Positions 40,236 to 64,000 of a DNA stretch of 64,000 nt are shown here, one piece after another; positions within the stretch are counted from its first letter, which is position 1; every line of letters begins with the position of its first letter. The DNA lies in the IMG/VR virus record IMGVR_UViG_3300037067_013379, positions 13,497 through 77,496 of that record. One strand, 5' to 3'. The position numbers and the translations under genes are program-made. A model generated the notes under the pieces. That model saw only the letters and a program-made list of their open reading frames with translations. It made no database searches and had not been told where the DNA came from. This DNA is from a virus (Duplodnaviria > Caudoviricetes).

Positions 40236-42485
40236 TCAGACGAGCGTCCGGTGGTAGTACCGGTCGTCGACCTTGTCCAACTCGCCGTACTTGGTGGTCA
40301 TGGCCTTCAATACCTCGAACAGGTTCCCCCGGCTGTACCGGAACCCCTCGGCGCGGAGGTTGGTCTCGATCTCCCCGGCCCGGAGGCCATTCGGATAGAT
40401 GTCGGTCAACATCAGGTTGAGGCGCTCGCGGAGCGTCGTGGTTGGCGCCTCGGGGATGGTCTCCCCAATATCGGGCATAACGGTCGGGGTGGTGGTGCCG
40501 GCCGGCTCGACGTCGACGGGGCAGTGCCCTTCGAGCATCATGTGCTGCCCGCTGGTCAACGCCTCGAAGATGTCCGTGTCGGACGGGGTCGCGGTTTGGG
40601 TGGTGGTCCGGGCCTCCGCCGCTGGTTTCCGCCCGGTTCCCAACCGGTCGACCTGGTTGAGTAGGTTCGCCGTGGCGGACCCGGCTCGTGGTGCGGCCGG
40701 GGCCTCGGTGGTTGTGGTGGCCGAGCGTCGTCCGGCCTGGGTGTCGGGGTCCTCGCCCCGTTCGATGGCCGCGAGGCGCTCGGCGCGTCGCTGGTGCCTG
40801 CGGGTGTAGGCGGTTCCGTTGGTGACATCGACGAGCGCCGGGTGGTCCAGGAGTTCCTCGTAGTTCTCCGGGTCGCGTCCGGCGAACACGTCAACGAGTT
40901 TGATATTGGCGCAGATCGCCTGTCCGGCCTGGTCGAGTTCGGGGCGGAGGTTCGCGCAGTCGATCGCGTGCCGTTCGACGAACACGGGGGGGACGTCGAC
41001 GGATCGGCCGACGACCGGCCGGTAGTCCTGCGTGGTCCGGTAGACCCACGCGGAGCCGGTATGCATGAGGCGGACCCGGCCGGGGTTCCGGCCGAGGACG
41101 TGATCGTATTCGCCTTCCTCGTCCATCCGGAGGCATACCCGGATGGAGCACACGGCGCGGAGGGCCTTGTCCAACAGGTCGGCCGTGCCGCGTAGGACGC
41201 TCATGATGACCCGGACGCCGGTTTCCCGGCCGATCTGGGCGAGGCTGGAGATCTGGGAGCAGACGATCTGGCCGAGGACGCTGGCGGCCTGGCGGACCTC
41301 CCCGCCCTCGTCGGTGATGACGACGACGGCTGGTTTCTTGGGGGACACGGGGAGGACGTTGGTTCCCGCGTCGCGGCGCATCTGGACGGCTTCGCGGTCG
41401 GTCTTGCGGCCCTTCGCGATACCCTTCGCGCACGCCATGATCACGGCAGATTCCTCTTCGGTGTCGCCCAACCAGTCGATGATCGGCTTGGACACCTTGC
41501 CTTCCTCGAACGGCCGGTTCCACGGTGCGCCGAGTCCGCCACCGTTGAAGTCGATGACCCAGATCAGGGCGTCCGTGCACCGGGCGAGGTACGCGATGAT
41601 GCGGTTCAGGAGGGTGGTCTTACCGCTGCCCGTGGTACCACCAATGATCATGCAGAAGATGCGGAGGCAGACCATGAACCAGTTGCCCTGCGGTGAGCGC
41701 ATGAGCGGGAAGGGGTCGTTGATCGACGCGGGTGCCGGGGTCTCGTGGTCGTCGAGAAGGATGTGGTCCTTCAGGCAGTCGCGGAGCATGACCCGGATGA
41801 CGGCCTCACACTGGTAGTCCCCGTCGAGGACGGTGACGACGCAGCCCTGTGGGAGTCGCAACTGTGGGGACGACTGGATCTTTCCGCACAGGTCGACGAG
41901 GTCCCGGGGTTCCATGCCCTCGACCAACGACACCCGGATGTCGATACCGTCGTCGGGGGTTTCCCACGGCTCGATCTTGATGACGGAGATGCTGGTCTTC
42001 GACAATCGGCGGAGGAGGGCCTGCATGTCTTCCTCCTGCCGGGTGCGTCCGGGGGGCAGGCCGTAGTTCGGGTCTGCCGCTGCGGCTGCCGCCTCGGCCT
42101 CGGCCCGTGCGGCTTTCTCCGCTGCCGCTGCCGCCTCCAGTTCCTCCTTGGTTGGGGGGATTGGGAGGGCGAGCATGACGGTGGTGCCGGTGGCGACGCC
42201 CACGGCGAGGACGACGACTCCGAGGGCCGTGACTCCGGCCGCTGCCGCGACGCTGGCCCAGATCGAGCCGGCCGCGACGAACAGGGCCGTCACGGCGGCT
42301 CGGGGTGCCGTGGTGCGGGTGTACCGGGCCTCGTACGTGGCGATGGCGAGGAGCATGCCGGCCGCTGCTGGTACCACGGCCGGGATGCCTGGGATGGTGC
42401 GGCATGCGAGTGCTGTGACGACCGGACCGAGGAGGCCGATCGTCGCGTAGGACGGGACGTGGTTGCTTGTGGTGGTGTGTTTCAC
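40236..42485 (-). CDS. traB: FtsK/SpoIIIE-family DNA translocase, Streptomyces TraB/Tra-type conjugation protein
   Basis: N-terminal TM helices, Walker A GGTTGSGKT, Walker B VVITDE, GRETGVR and C-terminal wHTH: the TraB architecture. Confidence 0.8.
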   Translation of the reverse strand: MKHTTTSNHVPSYATIGLLGPVVTALACRTIPGIPAVVPAAAGMLLAIATYEARYTRTTAPRAAVTALFVAAGSIWASVAAAAGVTALGVVVLAVGVATGTTVMLALPIPPTKEELEAAAAAEKAARAEAEAAAAAADPNYGLPPGRTRQEEDMQALLRRLSKTSISVIKIEPWETPDDGIDIRVSLVEGMEPRDLVDLCGKIQSSPQLRLPQGCVVTVLDGDYQCEAVIRVMLRDCLKDHILLDDHETPAPASINDPFPLMRSPQGNWFMVCLRIFCMIIGGTTGSGKTTLLNRIIAYLARCTDALIWVIDFNGGGLGAPWNRPFEEGKVSKPIIDWLGDTEEESAVIMACAKGIAKGRKTDREAVQMRRDAGTNVLPVSPKKPAVVVITDEGGEVRQAASVLGQIVCSQISSLAQIGRETGVRVIMSVLRGTADLLDKALRAVCSIRVCLRMDEEGEYDHVLGRNPGRVRLMHTGSAWVYRTTQDYRPVVGRSVDVPPVFVERHAIDCANLRPELDQAGQAICANIKLVDVFAGRDPENYEELLDHPALVDVTNGTAYTRRHQRRAERLAAIERGEDPDTQAGRRSATTTTEAPAAPRAGSATANLLNQVDRLGTGRKPAAEARTTTQTATPSDTDIFEALTSGQHMMLEGHCPVDVEPAGTTTPTVMPDIGETIPEAPTTTLRERLNLMLTDIYPNGLRAGEIETNLRAEGFRYSRGNLFEVLKAMTTKYGELDKVDDRYYHRTLV

Positions 42486-42512: not shown

Positions 42513-43853
42513 TCAGGTGTCCTTTTGGGCTTCGCCGACGTCGGAGCGCTTCTCGCGTTCGACCCCGCCCCTCATTCCGGCGAGGCGGTCTTCGTCGCCG
42601 GTGTGTTCGGTGCGGTATAGGGGGCCGAGGGCGTTCGCGTTGCTGGCGATACGTCCGATGACCTCGGAGATCTTCGGCAGTTTGCTCAGGGACGCCTGGA
42701 CGTCTGCCAGGAGGGCGACGAGTTTCGGCGAGGCTGGCAGTTCCTGCTCGCCTTGGGTGTGGAGGCGGACGACGGCCTGGGCGATGTTTTCCAGGTCGGC
42801 TTCGACGCGTCGGAGTTCGCGCTGCTTCTCCAGGAGCGCTTGTTCGATGGATGGGAGGCACCGGCCCCATGCTTGCAGGCTCGGGGTGCCGTGGGTTTTG
42901 ACCATCTTGGTTGATCCTCCTTGGGGGTTGGCCGGTGTGTCGGGCGTTTCCTGACCGGCCGGTTCTTCTTCGTCGGTGTCGTCGGTGTCTTCGGGTTCGG
43001 TGTTGTTGGGGTCGTCCTCCTCGTCTTTGTCCTTGGGGCCGGCTGCGTCCCAGCCCTTCTTGATTTCTTCGGCGGTTCGGGTGAGGAATCCGGGGCGGTC
43101 GGAGTCGTCGTCGTTGCCCTTGTTCTTGCTTCGGTGGTCCTTGTCGCGGCCGTGGTGGTCCTTGTCGCGTCCGCCTCCAGGGCCGAAGAGGTCTCCGAGC
43201 CCGTTGCCGCGTCCTCCGGTTCCGTTGCCGCGTCCCCGGCCTCCGTTGGTGCCGGTGCCTCGTCCGCCTCCGGTGCCTCCGAAGAGACCGCCGAGGCCGC
43301 GTCCGCGTCCGCGTCCTCCGCCGGTGCCGTGTCCGCCGGTGCCGGTGCCGCGTCCGCGTCCTCCGAGGATGTTTCCGAGGCCGCGTCCCCGGCCGGTGCC
43401 GGTGCCGTGTCCGCTGGTGCCGGTGCCGCGTCCGCGTCCTCCGAGGAGTCCGGCGAGCCCGCGTCCCCGGCCGGTGCCGGTGCCGTGTCCGCTGGTGCCG
43501 GTGCCGCGTCCGCGTCCTCCGAGGATGTTTCCGAGGCCGCGTCCCCGGCCGGTGCCGGTGGCGCCTCTGCGGTTCCGTCCGAACTTGGCGAGGAACACGA
43601 TCAGGGCGATCACGGCGATCGCGGCGTGGATGATGAGCCATCGTGTCCAGGAGCCGAGGGCTGCGACGAGGGCGAGTTCGGCCGTGGCTACGACCAGCGC
43701 GATCACGATCACGGTCTCGCGGTTGATCTTCGGACGGCGACGCTGTGTAGTTGGTTTTGGGGTGGTGGTTGGGTCGGTTGGGGTTGGTGTGGGTGCGACC
43801 GGTGGGGTCGGTGGTGGTGGTGTGGGGGCGGGTGGTGGTGTCGGCGTAGTCAT
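42513..43853 (-). CDS. Membrane-anchored Gly/Arg-repeat protein with a helical C-terminal domain (transfer/spread accessory)
   Basis: Two TM segments, 26-aa GR/GT repeats, acidic linker; directly upstream of traB. Confidence 0.7.
   Translation of the reverse strand: MTTPTPPPAPTPPPPTPPVAPTPTPTDPTTTPKPTTQRRRPKINRETVIVIALVVATAELALVAALGSWTRWLIIHAAIAVIALIVFLAKFGRNRRGATGTGRGRGLGNILGGRGRGTGTSGHGTGTGRGRGLAGLLGGRGRGTGTSGHGTGTGRGRGLGNILGGRGRGTGTGGHGTGGGRGRGRGLGGLFGGTGGGRGTGTNGGRGRGNGTGGRGNGLGDLFGPGGGRDKDHHGRDKDHRSKNKGNDDDSDRPGFLTRTAEEIKKGWDAAGPKDKDEEDDPNNTEPEDTDDTDEEEPAGQETPDTPANPQGGSTKMVKTHGTPSLQAWGRCLPSIEQALLEKQRELRRVEADLENIAQAVVRLHTQGEQELPASPKLVALLADVQASLSKLPKISEVIGRIASNANALGPLYRTEHTGDEDRLAGMRGGVEREKRSDVGEAQKDT
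43200..43570. repeat. 78-bp-period in-frame tandem repeat
   Basis: About 3-4 units encoding GGRGRGTGTSGHGTGTGRGRGLGNIL variants. Confidence 0.85.
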
Positions 43854-44023: not shown

Positions 44024-44236
44024 TTAGAATGCGGACGCGATCCAGTTGATGAACGTGGTGACGCCGGAGACGACTCCGGCGATCCAGCCTCCGAATGCGG
44101 TGTCGGTGTCCCCGGCGATGTAACCGAGGGTGACGAACGCGAGGACCATCGCGCCGGTGGCGAGTCGTCTTGCGGAGAAGAAGATGTAGAGGCCGGCTGC
44201 TATGGCGAGGAGCGCGGCGAAGACGGACGAGGTCAC
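44024..44236 (-). CDS. Small hydrophobic membrane protein (Spd/pilin-like size)
   Basis: 70 aa, almost entirely hydrophobic; GGAGG RBS; in the transfer operon. Confidence 0.7.
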   Translation of the reverse strand: MTSSVFAALLAIAAGLYIFFSARRLATGAMVLAFVTLGYIAGDTDTAFGGWIAGVVSGVTTFINWIASAF

Positions 44237-44532
44237 GGTTTTGCCTCCAGATCGACGGTGTAGCGGGTGGTGGTGCCGTTGCGCATGGTTTCGACCTCGA
44301 ACGTCGTGTGGTTGCGGAGGAGTTCGAGGGTCCAGACGCGGGCCTGGTCACGGGCGGGCTGCTCGGTGACGAACGTCGCGGGTTCGCGGAGTCGTCGGGT
44401 GTAGCAGTCGATGGCTGTGACGCGGTACGCCTGGGTGTTTCGGTAGAGGGTGATCTGCGCTCCCATGGGGGTCCGAACGGTGATCCACTCGTTGGTGTCG
44501 AGTGGGGTCTTGTTGTTCGGATGTTCCGTCAT
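44233..44532 (-). CDS. Hypothetical protein, first gene of the transfer operon
   Basis: GGGGAG RBS; GTGA overlap with the next gene. Confidence 0.7.
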   Translation of the reverse strand: MTEHPNNKTPLDTNEWITVRTPMGAQITLYRNTQAYRVTAIDCYTRRLREPATFVTEQPARDQARVWTLELLRNHTTFEVETMRNGTTTRYTVDLEAKP

Positions 44533-44559: not shown

Positions 44560-44588
44560 AGTATACAGGCATGCCAGGAAATAGCCAA
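44560..44588 (-). promoter_or_regulatory. SigA/HrdB-type promoter of the transfer operon
   Basis: TTGGCT-N17-TATACT on the minus strand. Confidence 0.7.
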
Positions 44589-44613: not shown

Positions 44614-45370
44614 CCCGTACGGCGTACGGGAACACGCCCCGTACGCCCCGTACGCCGAACCCCCGTACCAGGCAACCCCGTACGCCCCCGTACGCCCGTA
44701 CGCCGTACGGGTCGGCCGTACGCCCCCGTACGCCCCGTACGCGAACACCGGGGACCCCGTACGCCCCGTACGTCGACACCCCGTACGGCCCCGGGCCGCG
44801 ACTCCCCGTACGCCCCGTACGCCCGTACGCCCGCGCACCGTACGACCCCGCCTGTACGCCCATGCCCGTACGCCCCCCGCCCGTACGGGGACGGTTGGTG
44901 GGTACGCCGTACGGGCTGTACTGGTTGGCGTCCCCGTACGGGGCCGTACGCCCGCACGGCCCCGTACGGGGTACGGCCCAGGGCAACGGTTGGTGTACGG
45001 CCGCGTACGGCCCGGCCGTACGGGAATCGCGTACGGGTACCGATCCGCGTACGGGCGGGTACGCCGTACGGCCCGTACGCCCGTACGGCGGTCGGACCGT
45101 ACGCCCCGATCCCGTACGCCCCGTACACCAACCCCCGTACGGCCGCGTACGCCCCCGTACACCAACCACCCCGTACGCGTACCCCGTACGGCCCGTACGC
45201 CCGTACGCCGGCCCCCGTACGGGCCGTACGGTCGGGATCGCGCCGTACGGGAAACCGCCCCGAACCATGATCGGATCGGGGCGTACGGGGCGTGCCGTAC
45301 GGGGTCGTACGGGACCCGGACATGCGTACGCCCCCCGGTGGGTACGGGGGGCGTACGGGCCGTACGGGGT
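44614..45370. repeat. Dense array of ~60 GTAC-core repeats (mostly CCGTACG / CGTACGG)
   Basis: Manual count of about 60 GTAC in ~750 bp with irregular spacing; no consistent reading frame. Confidence 0.95.
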
Positions 45371-45383
45371 GGTGTGGCGCACC

Positions 45384-45581
45384 TCACCATCCATCGGGAT
45401 TGGTCAACATGTCGAGTGCCTCGGAGACGATCGTCTTCTCGTCGAGCCACGCGCGGGCCTGTTCGATGCCCTCGGCGACGAGTTCCCGGACCCGGGCCTC
45501 CGGCTCGTCCTGGCCGTAGAACGCGGCGTACTCGGCGATCGCTCGGGCGGCCCGGTATCCGGGGCGGCTGATGTCACTCAC
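45384..45581 (-). CDS. Small hypothetical protein
   Basis: AGGAGG RBS; 65 aa. Confidence 0.6.
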   Translation of the reverse strand: MSDISRPGYRAARAIAEYAAFYGQDEPEARVRELVAEGIEQARAWLDEKTIVSEALDMLTNPDGW

Positions 45582-45635
45582 GATGTCCTCCTACGGGGCG
45601 GCCCCCGGTGGTGTGCCGGGGGCCGGTGGGTGGTG

Positions 45636-45986
45636 TCACGCGGCACGGAGCGCCGTGGCGAGGTCCTCCGGGGTGGTGTCCTCGGTGAGGATGCGCGTGC
45701 GGTTCCGGAGGGTGGTGATGGCGGCCCGGACGCGGGTCTCGGTCGTGGCCGTCCGGACGGTCGCCATGAACTTGATGATCGTGTCGTACAACCGGGCGTC
45801 CGCCTTCGCGGCCCGTTCCACGGCAGCGGCCGTGGTGTACCGCTGGCCGGCTACCCGCGTGGGGCGGTTGGTGTTAGCGGCGAGGATCTTGTTGACGAGG
45901 CGGAACGCCGTCCGGTTCGCGTCGATCGGGCCGATCGCGGTGTAGAGGTCGTTGATGGTGGTGAGGTGGTTCGTCGTCTGCGTCAT
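45636..45986 (-). CDS. Hypothetical protein (probably leaderless)
   Basis: ATG 7 nt after a -10 box; a hairpin follows the stop. Confidence 0.7.
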   Translation of the reverse strand: MTQTTNHLTTINDLYTAIGPIDANRTAFRLVNKILAANTNRPTRVAGQRYTTAAAVERAAKADARLYDTIIKFMATVRTATTETRVRAAITTLRNRTRILTEDTTPEDLATALRAA

Positions 45987-45993
45987 GCCCCAT

Positions 45994-46022
45994 ACGCTAC
46001 CCGTGGCGTTAGGGGTTGTCGA
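45994..46022 (-). promoter_or_regulatory. Promoter TCGACA-N17-TAGCGT with a CCCCTAACGC operator in the spacer
   Basis: Nearly identical to the promoter at 62581-62609. Confidence 0.7.
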
Positions 46023-46066
46023 GCTATAACGCTCATACCTTTGGGCTTGATGCTGCGGAGTCTTCT

Positions 46067-46119
46067 GCCACCCATCCACCGGCCCCCGGTGGTGTGCCTG
46101 GGGCCGGTGGATGGGTGGC
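46067..46119 (-). terminator. Long hairpin after the Spd-like gene
   Basis: 20-bp arms GCCACCCATCCACCGGCCCC...GGGGCCGGTGGATGGGTGGC. Confidence 0.75.
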
Positions 46120-47378
46120 TAGTTCTGGCCGTTGGCGATCATCGTGATCGCCGTGGTGACCCGCTCCGCGACCGGCAGACCGGCGTCGAGCGAGTGAGCG
46201 CAGGTGACGATGTCCAGTACGCGCTTCGCCTGCCGGGCGAGGACCTTGTCGTCTCCGACGGTGCAGGCGCGCTCGATCGCGGACCGGCACAGGGACCCGG
46301 CCTGGATCAGACCGGTCAGGGCGTCCCAGTGGCGAACGACGATGTCCGCGTCGCGCTCGGCCGTGGTCATGGCGAGTGCCGTGACGGTCCGGCGTGCCGG
46401 GGTGCTGGTGATCGCGGGCTGGTTGCCGTTGTGCCGGTGGCCGTTGATCGGGGTGGTCGGGAGGTCGAGGACGGGGTTGCCGTTGGTCCGGTGGCCGTTG
46501 GGGGCCGCTGGTAGGGCCTCGACGTCGACGGTGGTCTCGACGGCCGGGTGCTCGATGGTGGGGGCCTCGGTGTCGCTGGCGACCCGTACGGCCTCGGTGC
46601 CGGTCTTGGTGACGGCCGCGATGCGGGCCTCGATCCCGTAGGCCAGTTCGAGGTGTGCGATCACGGCGGCTGCGGTTGTGGGGTCGGCCTTGAGCATCAT
46701 GCGACGGACCCGGCGACGCTTGCGCTCCTTGAACCACCGGGCGGAGGCGAGCATGTACGCGGCGTTCGTCAACTTCTCCTCGAACCGCTTGGCCTCGGCC
46801 TCGTCGACGGTTGTCTTCCCGGGCTTCCACGCGCCGAGGCGAATCAGGAGGTTGAGGGGGGTCCACATGAACCGGCCCCGGTTCTCCTCGCTCTGCTCCG
46901 CCGTCAACTTGATCCAGTGGAGGAGCGCGACCCCGAGGGGGAGGAGGATACGTAGTGCGATCTCGACGATGTTGGTGGACGCGAGGGCTACCAGGGTGCC
47001 CTCGGCCACGGCGACGATCCAGAACGCGGTTCCGAATGGTCCGGGTCGGCCGTGGCGGTCTTGGAAGTCCTTGGCGAGCCGGAAGAAGTTGACCATCAAG
47101 CCTTCGGCCACGGCGCATACGAAGATCGCGAGCCACCAGGGCAGGGGCATGGACAACTTGGTTGTGAGGACCCAGAACATGCCCTCGGCGGTGAGGGCCA
47201 GGACCATGAGGGTTACGGCGTTGCTGAGGACGTCGCGGTCTTTGGTGGTGGTCTTGCGGCCGGTGACGCGTCGGATGGTGGCGATGAGGAGGGCGAGGGC
47301 GAGGCCGAGGGCCGCGATGATCGCGTAGTGTCCGTACTCCCCCCACATGTCGATGATGGTGTTGATGTCTAGGTTCAC
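46119..47378 (-). CDS. SpdB2/DUF2637-like multi-TM plasmid spread protein
   Basis: Several TM helices, then a helical region, a Pro/Thr-rich linker and a possible C-terminal HTH; clustered with traB. Confidence 0.55.
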   Translation of the reverse strand: MNLDINTIIDMWGEYGHYAIIAALGLALALLIATIRRVTGRKTTTKDRDVLSNAVTLMVLALTAEGMFWVLTTKLSMPLPWWLAIFVCAVAEGLMVNFFRLAKDFQDRHGRPGPFGTAFWIVAVAEGTLVALASTNIVEIALRILLPLGVALLHWIKLTAEQSEENRGRFMWTPLNLLIRLGAWKPGKTTVDEAEAKRFEEKLTNAAYMLASARWFKERKRRRVRRMMLKADPTTAAAVIAHLELAYGIEARIAAVTKTGTEAVRVASDTEAPTIEHPAVETTVDVEALPAAPNGHRTNGNPVLDLPTTPINGHRHNGNQPAITSTPARRTVTALAMTTAERDADIVVRHWDALTGLIQAGSLCRSAIERACTVGDDKVLARQAKRVLDIVTCAHSLDAGLPVAERVTTAITMIANGQN

Positions 47379-47533: not shown

Positions 47534-48130
47534 TTAGAAGACCAGGCACCGCATCGTGTCGGACCGGGACCGCTTGACCTCGTACATCGCCACGTCGGCA
47601 TCGTGGATCATCTGGTGGAGGTCGATGCCGTCCTCGACCACCCTCGCTCCACACGACACGACGACCGTGATCTCGCCGTCCCGGGTCGGGATCGGGCAGG
47701 CCGCGATGTCCGAGACGATCCGGTTGAGGGTGCCCAGGACGTCCCAGCCGGACGGAATGAGGAGAAGGAACTCGTCGCCCCCGTACCGAACGCCGTAGCA
47801 CCCGGACGCGATCAGGACGGACGCGACGTGGGTGATCACCCGGTTGCCGGTCTTGTGCCCGTAGGTGTCGTTGATCCGCTTCAGGAAGTCGACGTCGAGG
47901 AACGCCACGGCCCCGACCATCGCGGTCGGCTGGCGAAGGCCAGACCAGAACTCTCTGAGCCAGCGCAAGTTGTGCAGGCCGGTCAGTTCGTCGATGTCGC
48001 GGCATCGCAGTTCCTGGTGCAATTCGTCGATCGTCTTCTCAAGGGAGTCGATCACGGTGTCACGGCGGGCGAGGTCGGCTCGTAGCGCGTCGATGGTGAC
48101 CTGGAGTCTGGTGATGTCGTTGGTGGTCAT
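47534..48130 (-). CDS. GGDEF diguanylate cyclase with an N-terminal coiled coil
   Basis: DELTGLHN, FLDVDFLKRINDTYGH..G, RYGGDEF and ADVAMYEVK. Confidence 0.93.
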   Translation of the reverse strand: MTTNDITRLQVTIDALRADLARRDTVIDSLEKTIDELHQELRCRDIDELTGLHNLRWLREFWSGLRQPTAMVGAVAFLDVDFLKRINDTYGHKTGNRVITHVASVLIASGCYGVRYGGDEFLLLIPSGWDVLGTLNRIVSDIAACPIPTRDGEITVVVSCGARVVEDGIDLHQMIHDADVAMYEVKRSRSDTMRCLVF

Positions 48131-63675: not shown

Positions 63676-63858
63676 GTGGCGACCGGGCGTTCCTGGGGTA
63701 ACCGTCGGATCACCCCGGCGAAGGCACAACACGCGATCGATGCCCTGATGGCGCTGGTCGAGACCGGCGACTGGGCGGGCCTCGACCCAGACGTCAAGAC
63801 CGCGATCAACGACGCGTGCGAGGCGCTCACGGCGGTTCGCGAGTCGACAAGGATCTGA
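63676..63858 (+). CDS. Small hypothetical protein
   Basis: Followed by a hairpin at 63877-63905. Confidence 0.5.
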   Translation: MATGRSWGNRRITPAKAQHAIDALMALVETGDWAGLDPDVKTAINDACEALTAVRESTRI

Positions 63859-64000
63859 CACCCTGCCCTTCCCCGTACGGCCCCCGGTTCGCCCCCGGGG
63901 GCCGTCGTCGTATTGGGGCCACGGGCGGCCCCAGCGTCCCGCCACGGCCCGAACGGGGGGGTCCGCGTATGTCCGGACCCCCCGGTATTTCGTGACGCCA

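What the first reader, a model, noticed from the sequence alone, without database searches (positions are those of the whole stretch)
44614..45370. ~750-bp array of about 60 CGTACG-core repeats directly upstream of the transfer operon promoter
Seen: about 60 GTAC (manual count), mostly as CCCGTACGC in the left part and GCGTACGGG towards the right end, at irregular 7-20 bp spacing, so no reading frame is preserved. The array ends ~25 bp from the TTGGCT-N17-TATACT promoter. Inference: it is the best candidate for a clt-like TraB loading site, but the palindromic core and convergent polarity differ from the direct 8-bp repeats of characterised clt loci. Alternatives are a centromere-like partition site, a repressor array, or a decoy sponge for a GTAC-recognising restriction enzyme or methyltransferase.
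Basis: partly seen in the sequence, partly recalled or inferred. Interest (0 to 1): 0.8.

Follow-up and report, generated by a model that had tools for sequence, protein, structure and literature searches.

The report
Protein-docking repeat array of phage DNA-transfer module
A tailed phage of high-GC mycelial bacteria keeps about 60 copies of the short DNA word CGTACG in a 750-bp non-coding stretch beside its plasmid-style DNA-pump genes, most likely as the landing pad that brings the phage DNA to that pump.

Summary
In detail: there are exactly 60 GTAC (48 CGTACG) at window 44617-45365, against about 4 per kb elsewhere. Spacing is irregular and the three phases are equally used, so the array is non-coding.

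The array lies between a 419-aa membrane-protein gene and the promoter of an operon that ends in a TraB/FtsK-like DNA translocase. At least seven distinct relatives with sequence at this position, down to 45-49% protein identity, keep a 740-950 bp array of 46-60 copies there. Individual copies are not positionally conserved, so selection acts on the word itself.

One relative has CGTCCG instead. Its TraB recognition helix is unchanged, but the C-terminal domain of its membrane protein is altered.

CGTACG-dense arrays in unrelated actinobacterial viral contigs also sit inside or beside homologous DUF2637-like membrane-protein genes. All but one of these are also next to a TraB-like gene.

Best reading (0.62): a clt-like, multi-site docking array of the transfer/spread module. 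The reader protein is unresolved: the membrane protein is slightly favoured, and the TraB wHTH is the alternative.

This is a new variant of a known kind. The scan has noted similar arrays on other phage-plasmid DNA (e1-3782669, e1-3299135).

The parts
44614..45368 (.). Non-coding array of 60 GTAC-core repeats. The oriented consensus is GsCGTACGGg on the minus (operon-sense) strand.
   Evidence: Relatives L004, L005, L187, L209-L211 and L216 have an array at the same place.
45260..45279 (.). Non-repeat island CCGAACCATGATCGGATCGG inside the array, at its largest gap.
   Evidence: It is positionally conserved in L004 and L005. ATCATGGT is also present inside the CGTCCG array of L186. Its function is unknown.
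44560..44588 (-). Promoter-like site TTGGCT-N17-TATACT of the TraB operon, 26 bp from the array.
   Evidence: The sequence and its distance from the array are conserved in L004, L005, L187, L211 and L216.
44233..44532 (-). First gene of the operon, 99 aa, with no known family.
   Evidence: Homologues hold the same position in L187 and L189.
44024..44236 (-). Small hydrophobic protein of 70 aa.
   Evidence: Translation. A 70-aa gene is called at the same position in L187 and L189.
42513..43853 (-). 446-aa protein with a TM segment, (GTGRGRG)n repeats, an acidic stretch and a coiled coil; TraA-like position upstream of TraB.
   Evidence: Equivalents occur upstream of the translocase gene in Hiyaa, L191, L203 and L204.
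40236..42485 (-). 749-aa membrane-anchored FtsK/TraB-like ATPase with a C-terminal wHTH-like region (helix SRGNLFEVLKAM).
   Evidence: PHROG FtsK/SpoIIIE-like at 5e-46. tblastn matches plasmid 'DNA translocase FtsK' genes and the FtsK-like genes of phages Hiyaa and P1312. C-terminal alignment.
46119..47378 (-). 419-aa membrane protein whose N-terminal domain is related to DUF2637-like proteins. Its C-terminal helical domain is the candidate reader of the array.
   Evidence: hhalign to the array-bearing proteins gives 96.8% probability. BLAST to the L040, L194 and L014 proteins gives 3e-10 to 7e-6. Family alignment. The C-terminal model has pLDDT 83.
45384..46079 (-). Two small genes (65 aa and 147 aa) between the 419-aa gene and the array. 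The alignment suggests L004 lacks them, leaving its array about 170 bp from the gene.
   Evidence: A 65-aa homologue is present in L186.
47534..48130 (-). GGDEF diguanylate cyclase gene, syntenic upstream neighbour of the 419-aa gene.
   Evidence: Pfam GGDEF at 2e-23. Same neighbour in L186, L187 and L188.

Best explanation
The array is the cis-acting DNA handle of the phage's plasmid-type (TraB/Spd-like) double-stranded-DNA transfer or spread module. It works like a clt locus.

Proposed mechanism:
1. Some 50-60 closely spaced copies of one short word (core CGTACG, oriented GsCGTACGGg) bind many copies of a sequence-specific protein encoded by the module.
2. This holds the phage genome at the membrane where the TraB-like hexameric pump assembles.
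3. The pump then moves the DNA across a septum or into a neighbouring hypha.

The reader protein is not settled. My odds within this explanation are:
- about 45% the C-terminal helical domain of the adjacent 419-aa DUF2637-like membrane protein, acting as a membrane tether that hands DNA to TraB;
- about 40% the C-terminal wHTH of TraB itself, as in classical clt;
- about 15% another module protein.

Because the array abuts the operon promoter at a fixed distance, the same binding may also tune expression of the TraB operon.

Shown here: the array itself, its conservation at the level of the word, its synteny, and its association with these two gene families.

For: 1. The array is real and non-coding.

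2. It holds the same position, between the 419-aa gene and the TTGGCT..TATACT promoter, in every relative with sequence there: L004, L005, L187, L208-L211 and L216, with the start of one in L217. These relatives reach down to 40-49% identity of the 419-aa protein and 55% of TraB. Arrays are 742-955 bp long with 46-60 GTAC. The copies do not align one-to-one, so the word is selected, not a particular sequence.

3. An independent search of IMG/VR for clustered CCGTACG found five more dense arrays:
- Four (L014, L015, L017, L040) lie inside genes for DUF2637-like membrane proteins next to divergent FtsK/TraB-like ATPases.
- One (L065) is non-coding and 2.2 kb downstream of such a gene.
- In the four genes the word is written in mixed phases, and the rare codon CGT supplies 20-46% of Arg codons against 2-11% in the neighbouring translocase genes. 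That indicates selection at the DNA level.

4. Most other TraB-like loci carry their own word in an array within about 3 kb: GGTCCGG in phage P1312, GGACCA in L194, CTGGCG in L201, CGCAGC in L192.

5. There are two published precedents:
- TraB binds repeated 7-9-bp words in clt through helix alpha-3 of its wHTH (PMC4447253, PMC3583192).
- SpdA2 binds palindromes inside its own gene (PMC4170104).

6. Evidence for the membrane protein as reader:
- The relative L186/L189 has CCCCGTCCG instead of CCCCGTACG.
- Its TraB helix SRGNLF is identical to the window's.
- Its 419-aa homologue alone changes GDDKVLARQAKRVL to DAYRVTARPAARIL and C to S in the preceding helix. That segment is otherwise conserved down to 40% identity.
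Against: - No binding has been shown for any protein.
- The C-terminal domain of the 419-aa protein folds confidently (pLDDT 83), but no solved DNA-binding fold was recovered as a clear match, and by my count of its residues its net charge is about -1.
- That domain is not detectably homologous to the 'SWCEK' HTH of the other CGTACG-bearing proteins (hhalign probability 0.1%). Under the membrane-protein reading, two different domains would therefore read the same word.
- The motif switch is a single lineage and a single base, so a subtle change in TraB (E/A to N next to SRGNLF) is not excluded.
- Sixty sites is far more than the 3-9 of any characterised clt.
- Some in-gene 'arrays' in other loci, such as AEAEA or GSG runs, may be protein-level repeats.
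- The IMG/VR search was for CGTACG itself, so the recurrence of that word is ascertained, not independent.
Confidence: 0.62

Rival explanations
1. Classical clt in the strict sense: the TraB wHTH alone reads the words and hexamers load directly on the array, while the membrane protein plays no sequence-specific part.
For: There is experimental precedent in pSVH1, pJV1 and pWTY27 (PMC4447253, PMC3583192). TraB here keeps a conserved C-terminal wHTH-like domain. Arrays lie within 0-3 kb of a TraB-like gene in nearly all loci. The array has a 65% directional bias, like direct repeats.
Against: L186/L189 changed the word without changing helix SRGNLF. The TraB-like proteins next to other CGTACG arrays have unrelated C-termini. 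In the 137-kb phage L065 the only FtsK-family gene found is 67 kb from the array.
Confidence: 0.27
2. Stability or segregation site rather than transfer site: a centromere-like membrane tether of the SpdA2-sps type that keeps the extrachromosomal phage genome distributed along hyphae and into spores.
For: SpdA2-sps affects segregational stability, not transfer (PMC4170104). The arrays track the membrane-protein gene more closely than they track TraB. No integrase was seen by the first-stage notes (e1-5891213, unchecked).
Against: No ParA-type partner lies beside the array. The fixed placement against the TraB operon promoter, and the co-occurrence with TraB in 8 of 9 cases, argue for a link with transfer.
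Confidence: 0.15
3. Regulatory array: a giant operator or titration sponge for a repressor controlling the toxic TraB operon (kil-kor logic).
For: The array ends 26-30 bp from the -35 hexamer in all relatives, and the promoter-proximal pair of repeats is positionally conserved. traB is repressor-controlled in plasmids (PMC4447253).
Against: Fifty to sixty sites over 750 bp is out of scale for an operator. Related arrays lie inside coding regions far from promoters. No repressor gene (GntR/TraR-like) was found next to the array.
Confidence: 0.1
4. Target or decoy for a host factor or a restriction-modification enzyme that recognises GTAC or CGTACG.
For: The same word recurs in unrelated elements. 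Small GTACG microsatellites occur in Streptomyces chromosomes.
Against: GTAC and CGTACG are not depleted elsewhere in the phage: 334 GTAC against about 238 expected, and 51 CGTACG against about 26. Sister elements use quite different words. The recurrence of CGTACG is an effect of how I searched.
Confidence: 0.05
5. Neutral slippage product (degenerate microsatellite) or a purely structural element (G-quadruplex or i-motif tract).
For: There are locally imperfect 7-10-bp periods. Three of the nine canonical G4 motifs in the window fall in the array.
Against: The array is kept at one position, with similar length and copy number, across lineages with only 45-49% protein identity while its copies turn over. 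Only three G4 motifs sit among 60 repeats.
Confidence: 0.03

Closest known systems
[quoted passage not shown]
   Same: Both are arrays of a short element-specific word beside a membrane-anchored FtsK-like TraB gene with a C-terminal wHTH. Both are mostly directly oriented, and both lie in or next to coding sequence of the transfer module.
   Different: - Size: this array has 46-60 copies over 740-950 bp, against 3-9 copies in 200 bp or less.
- Core: the core here is palindromic.
- Position: it lies upstream of the operon and next to a membrane-protein gene rather than at the 3' end of traB.
- Host element: it sits in a tailed-phage genome.
- Covariation: the one natural word change does not track the TraB recognition helix.
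sps palindromes bound by SpdA2 of pIJ101 (Thoma et al. 2014, PMC4170104)
   Same: Both are short palindromic words placed inside or beside the gene of a spread-module protein. In relatives here they are likewise written into the coding sequence against codon preference.
   Different: sps is a 12-bp palindrome in 2-3 copies, and SpdA2 is a small soluble protein. Here there are tens of copies of a 6-10-bp word, and the candidate binder is a 419-aa multi-pass membrane protein. No homology to SpdA was shown.
Transfer loci of Streptomyces plasmid-phages such as pZL12 (cited in PMC3583192, PMC4487206), and earlier scan notes on phage-borne TraB modules with repeat arrays (e1-3782669, e1-3299135)
   Same: All are tailed phage or phage-plasmid genomes carrying a TraB-type module. 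One scan note reports about 60 copies of another word (TGTCCCG), and another reports a 13-copy array inside a DUF2637/SpdB2-like gene.
   Different: The word, the phage lineage and probably the host family differ: the TraB relatives are in Micromonosporaceae. I could not read the pZL12 paper itself, and the scan notes are unchecked AI notes.
KOPS/SRS polar sequences read by the FtsK/SpoIIIE gamma domain
   Same: Both are short words that could be read by the wHTH of an FtsK-family motor, and both have a directional bias.
   Different: KOPS are dispersed genome-wide with strand bias. Here the word is at background frequency outside one 750-bp block.

Membership tests
clt of TraB-type conjugation | Lies beside a TraB/FtsK-like translocase gene of the same module | tested here: met
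   The array is 2.1 kb upstream of the 749-aa TraB-like gene and directly upstream of its operon promoter. The synteny is conserved.
clt of TraB-type conjugation | Several copies of one short (7-9 bp) word, mostly as direct repeats | tested here: met
   There are 60 copies with oriented consensus GsCGTACGGg, and 65% point one way. The copy number is an order of magnitude above known clt loci.
clt of TraB-type conjugation | The word co-varies with the recognition helix of the TraB wHTH | tested here: not met
   L186/L189 has CGTCCG, but its helix SRGNLF is identical to those of the window and L187. This is a single lineage, so the test is weak.
clt of TraB-type conjugation | Bound by TraB and required in cis for transfer | not testable with these tools
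   This needs EMSA or footprinting and mobilisation assays.
SpdA2-sps type site | Palindromic word inside or next to the gene of its binding protein | tested here: inconclusive
   The core is palindromic and lies beside the 419-aa gene, and inside the homologous genes in L014, L015, L017 and L040. That the protein binds it is inferred only.
SpdA2-sps type site | The binder is an SpdA-family protein | not tested
   No SpdA sequence was available for comparison. Pfam, PHROGs and NCBIfam give no family for the 419-aa protein.
DUF2637-like membrane protein family (for the 419-aa neighbour) | Homology of the membrane domain | tested here: met
   hhalign gives 96.8% probability (E 2.7e-10) to the array-bearing proteins. 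BLAST links to L040 and L194 are at 3e-10 and 5e-12. L017 and L201 members hit Pfam DUF2637. The window protein itself does not reach Pfam's threshold.
parS/centromere | Adjacent ParA/ParB-type partition genes | tested here: not met
   None is found among the ten genes flanking the array. A ParB-methyltransferase fusion elsewhere in the genome is known only from a first-stage note.
Replication-origin iterons | Adjacent initiator gene and an AT-rich unwinding region | tested here: not met
   There is no rep-like gene next to the array. The array is 74% G+C.
KOPS-like polar sequences | Genome-wide, strand-biased distribution | tested here: not met
   There are 25 CCGTACG matches outside the array, against 21 expected for the whole window.

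The most novel reading that the evidence does not exclude
The sequence-specific reader of these arrays is the DUF2637-like membrane protein, not TraB. Actinomycete dsDNA-transfer modules, in plasmids, AICEs and tailed phages alike, would then share an unrecognised component. This would be a membrane-anchored DNA tether with a swappable C-terminal DNA-binding domain. Its binding-site array is written into, or placed just after, its own gene. The tether would deliver the element's DNA to the TraB pore, and the 60-copy non-coding array in this phage clade would be the extreme, coding-free form.
Probability: 0.3. Interest if true: 0.8.

Novelty: new variant of a known kind. Interest (0 to 1): 0.6.

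Why it matters
FtsK/TraB-like genes are widespread in actinophages, and their role is unexplained (bioRxiv 10.1101/2024.02.16.580700).

A conserved, very large cis array tied to that module gives a concrete handle for experiments. It can be cloned, deleted or swapped to ask whether tailed phages move naked dsDNA between hyphal compartments.

The natural CGTACG/CGTCCG pair offers a direct test of which protein reads clt-like sites.

There is also a practical point. Short-read assemblies break at these arrays, so such modules are under-sampled in metagenomes.

Tried and rejected
- **Similar DNA in phage and plasmid collections.** The only hit was a simple (GGCCGCGTAC)16 tandem repeat on an Embleya plasmid, which is unrelated.
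- **Rfam.** Only sub-threshold chance matches.
- **Structure searches with the model of the 419-aa C-terminal domain.** Foldseek against PDB found nothing at E <= 0.001. VIA-align wide gave a best Z of 5.5, inside the noise for helical domains. Scattered HTH proteins (Mu transposase I-beta, IscR, StbA, small terminase) appeared among many unrelated rows.
- **hhalign of that domain against the 'SWCEK' HTH of other CGTACG-bearing proteins.** No homology.
- **Pfam, PHROGs and NCBIfam on the neighbouring genes.** Only the translocase and the GGDEF protein were named.
- **Genome-contig scan for the word.** It returned mostly small GTACG microsatellites and Tyr-rich coding repeats.
- **Attempts to get more motif-switch lineages.**
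  - Contigs for P0057, P0062 and P0063 break just upstream of TraB.
  - P0033 has no DNA on hand.
  - P0028 ends in adapter sequence.
  - Records of L186 and L187 are not held for whole-record search.
- **G-quadruplex idea.** Only 3 canonical motifs lie in the array.
- **Hiyaa's CCGGACC run.** It is best explained as Gly-Ser coding repeats, not a DNA site.
- **pZL12 paper (PMC2897331).** It is not held.

Full report
**1. The observation**

Window 44617-45365 holds exactly 60 GTAC, and 48 of them are CGTACG. C precedes the core in 52 of 60 copies and G follows it in 54 of 60.

The rest of the window has 4.1 GTAC per kb. CCGTACG gives 88 matches in the window, against 21.4 +/- 5.2 in dinucleotide-preserving shuffles. 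Of these, 63 sit in the array and the other 25 are at background level.

Several measures show the array is non-coding:
- Spacing is 6-38 bp with a median of 10.
- The three phases are used 20/22/18 times.
- Tandem Repeats Finder finds only short, imperfect local periods.
- The six frames are open only because the word has no stop codon. None of them passes a GC3 coding filter.

The array ends 26 bp from TTGGCT-N17-TATACT on the minus strand.

After an orientation-refining fit over 360 copies from seven arrays, the word is GsCGTACGGg, and about 65% of copies point towards the operon. There is a reversed block at the distal end and another in the middle.

**2. The setting**

The window is most of a 77.5-kb IMG/VR virus record that CheckV rates 96% complete. 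Its ends repeat about 168 bp.

To the left of the array a minus-strand operon runs from the promoter. It encodes, in order:
- a 99-aa protein;
- a 70-aa hydrophobic protein;
- a 446-aa protein with a TM segment, RG repeats and a coiled coil;
- a 749-aa membrane-anchored FtsK/TraB-like ATPase.

The ATPase matches a PHROG FtsK/SpoIIIE-like family at 5e-46. It is about 30% identical to 'DNA translocase FtsK' genes of Streptomyces plasmids and to the FtsK-like genes of phages Hiyaa and P1312.

To the right, also on the minus strand, lie a GGDEF gene, a 419-aa multi-pass membrane protein and two small genes.

**3. Conservation**

Every relative for which DNA at this position could be obtained has an array between the 419-aa gene and the same promoter:
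- L004 and L005 (TraB 85% identical);
- L208-L211;
- L187 and L216 (419-aa protein 45-49%, TraB 55%);
- the first copies of an array at the end of L217 (40%).

Array length is 742-955 bp and copy number is 46-60. The gap to the -35 hexamer is constant.

Aligned arrays agree at their two ends and at one internal non-repeat island (window 45260-45279). Otherwise the copies do not correspond one to one. What is kept is the word, its density and its place. That rules out a neutral microsatellite and points to a multi-site binding platform.

**4. A natural change of the word**

One 83-kb contig is circular and broke inside the array, giving loci L186 and L189. It carries CCCCGTCCG and its complement at the same place.

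Its TraB is 56% identical to the window's and has the same presumptive recognition helix, SRGNLF, as the window and L187. The wHTH shows no lineage-specific divergence.

Its 419-aa homologue is 57% identical overall. Yet it alone replaces GDDKVLARQAKRVL by DAYRVTARPAARIL, and C by S in the preceding helix. That segment is otherwise conserved down to 40% identity, including in L187, L216 and L217, which keep CGTACG.

This is the only covariation signal available, and it favours the membrane protein. It rests on one lineage and one base, so it is suggestive only.

**5. The same word elsewhere**

A scan of IMG/VR for three close CCGTACG found the window's relatives plus five other dense arrays in high-GC viral or proviral contigs.

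Four of these (L014, L015, L017, L040) lie inside genes for membrane proteins. These proteins share a nearly invariant C-terminal HTH-like motif, W.PDY..L...G..S.CEK.V..A.
- The word is written mostly as Arg-Thr, but also in the other two phases.
- CGT supplies 20-46% of Arg codons, against 2-11% in the neighbouring genes. That shows selection on the DNA.
- Each gene is next to a very divergent FtsK/TraB-like ATPase.

The fifth array (L065, from a 137-kb phage) is non-coding. It lies 2.2 kb downstream of such a membrane-protein gene and 67 kb from the only FtsK-family gene found.

The membrane domains of these proteins are homologous to that of the window's 419-aa protein. hhalign gives 96.8% probability, and BLAST links are at 3e-10 to 7e-6. 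Two family members hit Pfam DUF2637.

The C-terminal domains are not detectably related.

Because I searched for CGTACG, its recurrence is ascertained. The informative result is where the arrays lie.

**6. Other words, same architecture**

Most TraB-like loci fetched with a family profile have a locally enriched word within about 3 kb of the translocase gene:
- GGTCCGG in P1312;
- GGACCA in L194, inside a 419-family homologue;
- CTGGCG in L201, inside a DUF2637 protein;
- CGCAGC in L192;
- others.

Some runs look like protein-level repeats, for example GSG in Hiyaa and AEAEA in L197.

The window's array is by far the largest, and it is free of coding constraint.

**7. What is known**

TraB of Streptomyces plasmids is a membrane FtsK-like hexamer. 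Its wHTH helix alpha-3 reads repeated 8-bp words in clt. Known clt loci hold 3-9 repeats in at most about 200 bp (PMC4447253, PMC3583192).

SpdA2 of pIJ101 binds 12-bp palindromes inside its own gene, and it affects stability rather than transfer (PMC4170104).

FtsK-like genes are noted as common, and unexplained, in actinophages (bioRxiv 10.1101/2024.02.16.580700).

Earlier notes of this scan describe comparable arrays in other phage-plasmids. I did not check them.

**8. Interpretation**

The array is best read as the cis-acting docking site of the phage's TraB/Spd-like module. It works like a clt, at 0.62 confidence.

- The arrays follow that gene family, lying inside it, just after it, or near it even where TraB is far away.
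- The L186 switch changes that protein and not the TraB helix.
- SpdA2-sps is a precedent for sites placed in the binder's own gene.

Three points count against the membrane protein:
- Its C-terminal domain folds confidently (pLDDT 83), but no clear DNA-binding fold match was recovered.
- The domain is not basic.
- It differs from the domain found with the other CGTACG arrays.

TraB remains a strong alternative, because its wHTH must read something.

A stability role, a regulatory role at the abutting promoter, or both, may coexist with the docking role.

A restriction decoy, a KOPS-like signal, replication iterons and a G-quadruplex tract find no support.

**9. Verdict**

The feature is real and strongly selected. 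I class it as a new variant of a known kind of element: clt-like repeat loci.

It is remarkable for its size and its palindromic core, for sitting in tailed phages, and for the hint that a membrane protein rather than TraB reads it. Nothing about binding or transfer has been shown.

Noticed in passing
genome record ends (window 63833-64000 and 13.5 kb before the window start): The first and last ~168 bp of the 77.5-kb record are the same sequence apart from one mismatch. The genome is therefore circularly closed or terminally redundant, and essentially complete.
   Followed up: partly
window 45260-45279: A non-repeat island, CCGAACCATGATCGGATCGG, sits inside the array. It is positionally conserved in close relatives, and ATCATGGT recurs inside the CGTCCG array of L186. 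It could be a second protein's site.
   Followed up: partly
window 42513-43853 (-): The 446-aa protein has a TM segment, long (GTGRGRG)n repeats, an acidic stretch and a coiled coil. Equivalents upstream of TraB-like genes in other phages carry their own short-word runs (GGTACC, GCAACG, GTAGCG). These may be protein-level, DNA-level or both.
   Followed up: partly
L003 (Thermobifida phage P1312) 10518-12344: The record annotates two overlapping ORFs on opposite strands across a GGTCCGG array. Only the + strand ORF looks real: an HTH, a repeat linker and a multi-TM region that looked DUF2637-like by eye (no Pfam hit). The array sits in its linker, next to the FtsK gene.
   Followed up: partly
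L114 1536-1600; L125 6427-6515 (Streptomyces genomes): These are small perfect GTACG-containing microsatellites, (GTACGGGC)8 and (GTACGTATGCC)7, in intergenic DNA.
   Followed up: no
L001 (Embleya plasmid NZ_CP108787) 4080-4400 and 6003-6160: There is a (GGCCGCGTAC)16 tandem repeat. About 1.5 kb away are runs of CGCACA-type words that resemble the pJV1 clt repeat CCGCACA. No genes are annotated there.
   Followed up: no
L218 1640-1807: The most distant 419-aa homologue (37% identity, shortened helix ISARQAARIL) is followed by a ~50-bp tandem repeat instead of a CGTACG array. The contig ends there.
   Followed up: no
L187 11225-11300; L216 1190-1260: In the 45-49% relatives, a strong GC hairpin (cacagggggggtgtccgcc ... 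ggcggacaccccccctgtg) lies between the membrane-protein gene and the array, with a GTAC in its loop. It is probably a terminator, which would mean the array is not read through from upstream.
   Followed up: no
L186/L189, L190, L219, L220: Metagenome contigs of this phage group end inside the array or inside the RG-repeat gene. Short-read assemblies therefore break systematically at these repeats.
   Followed up: partly
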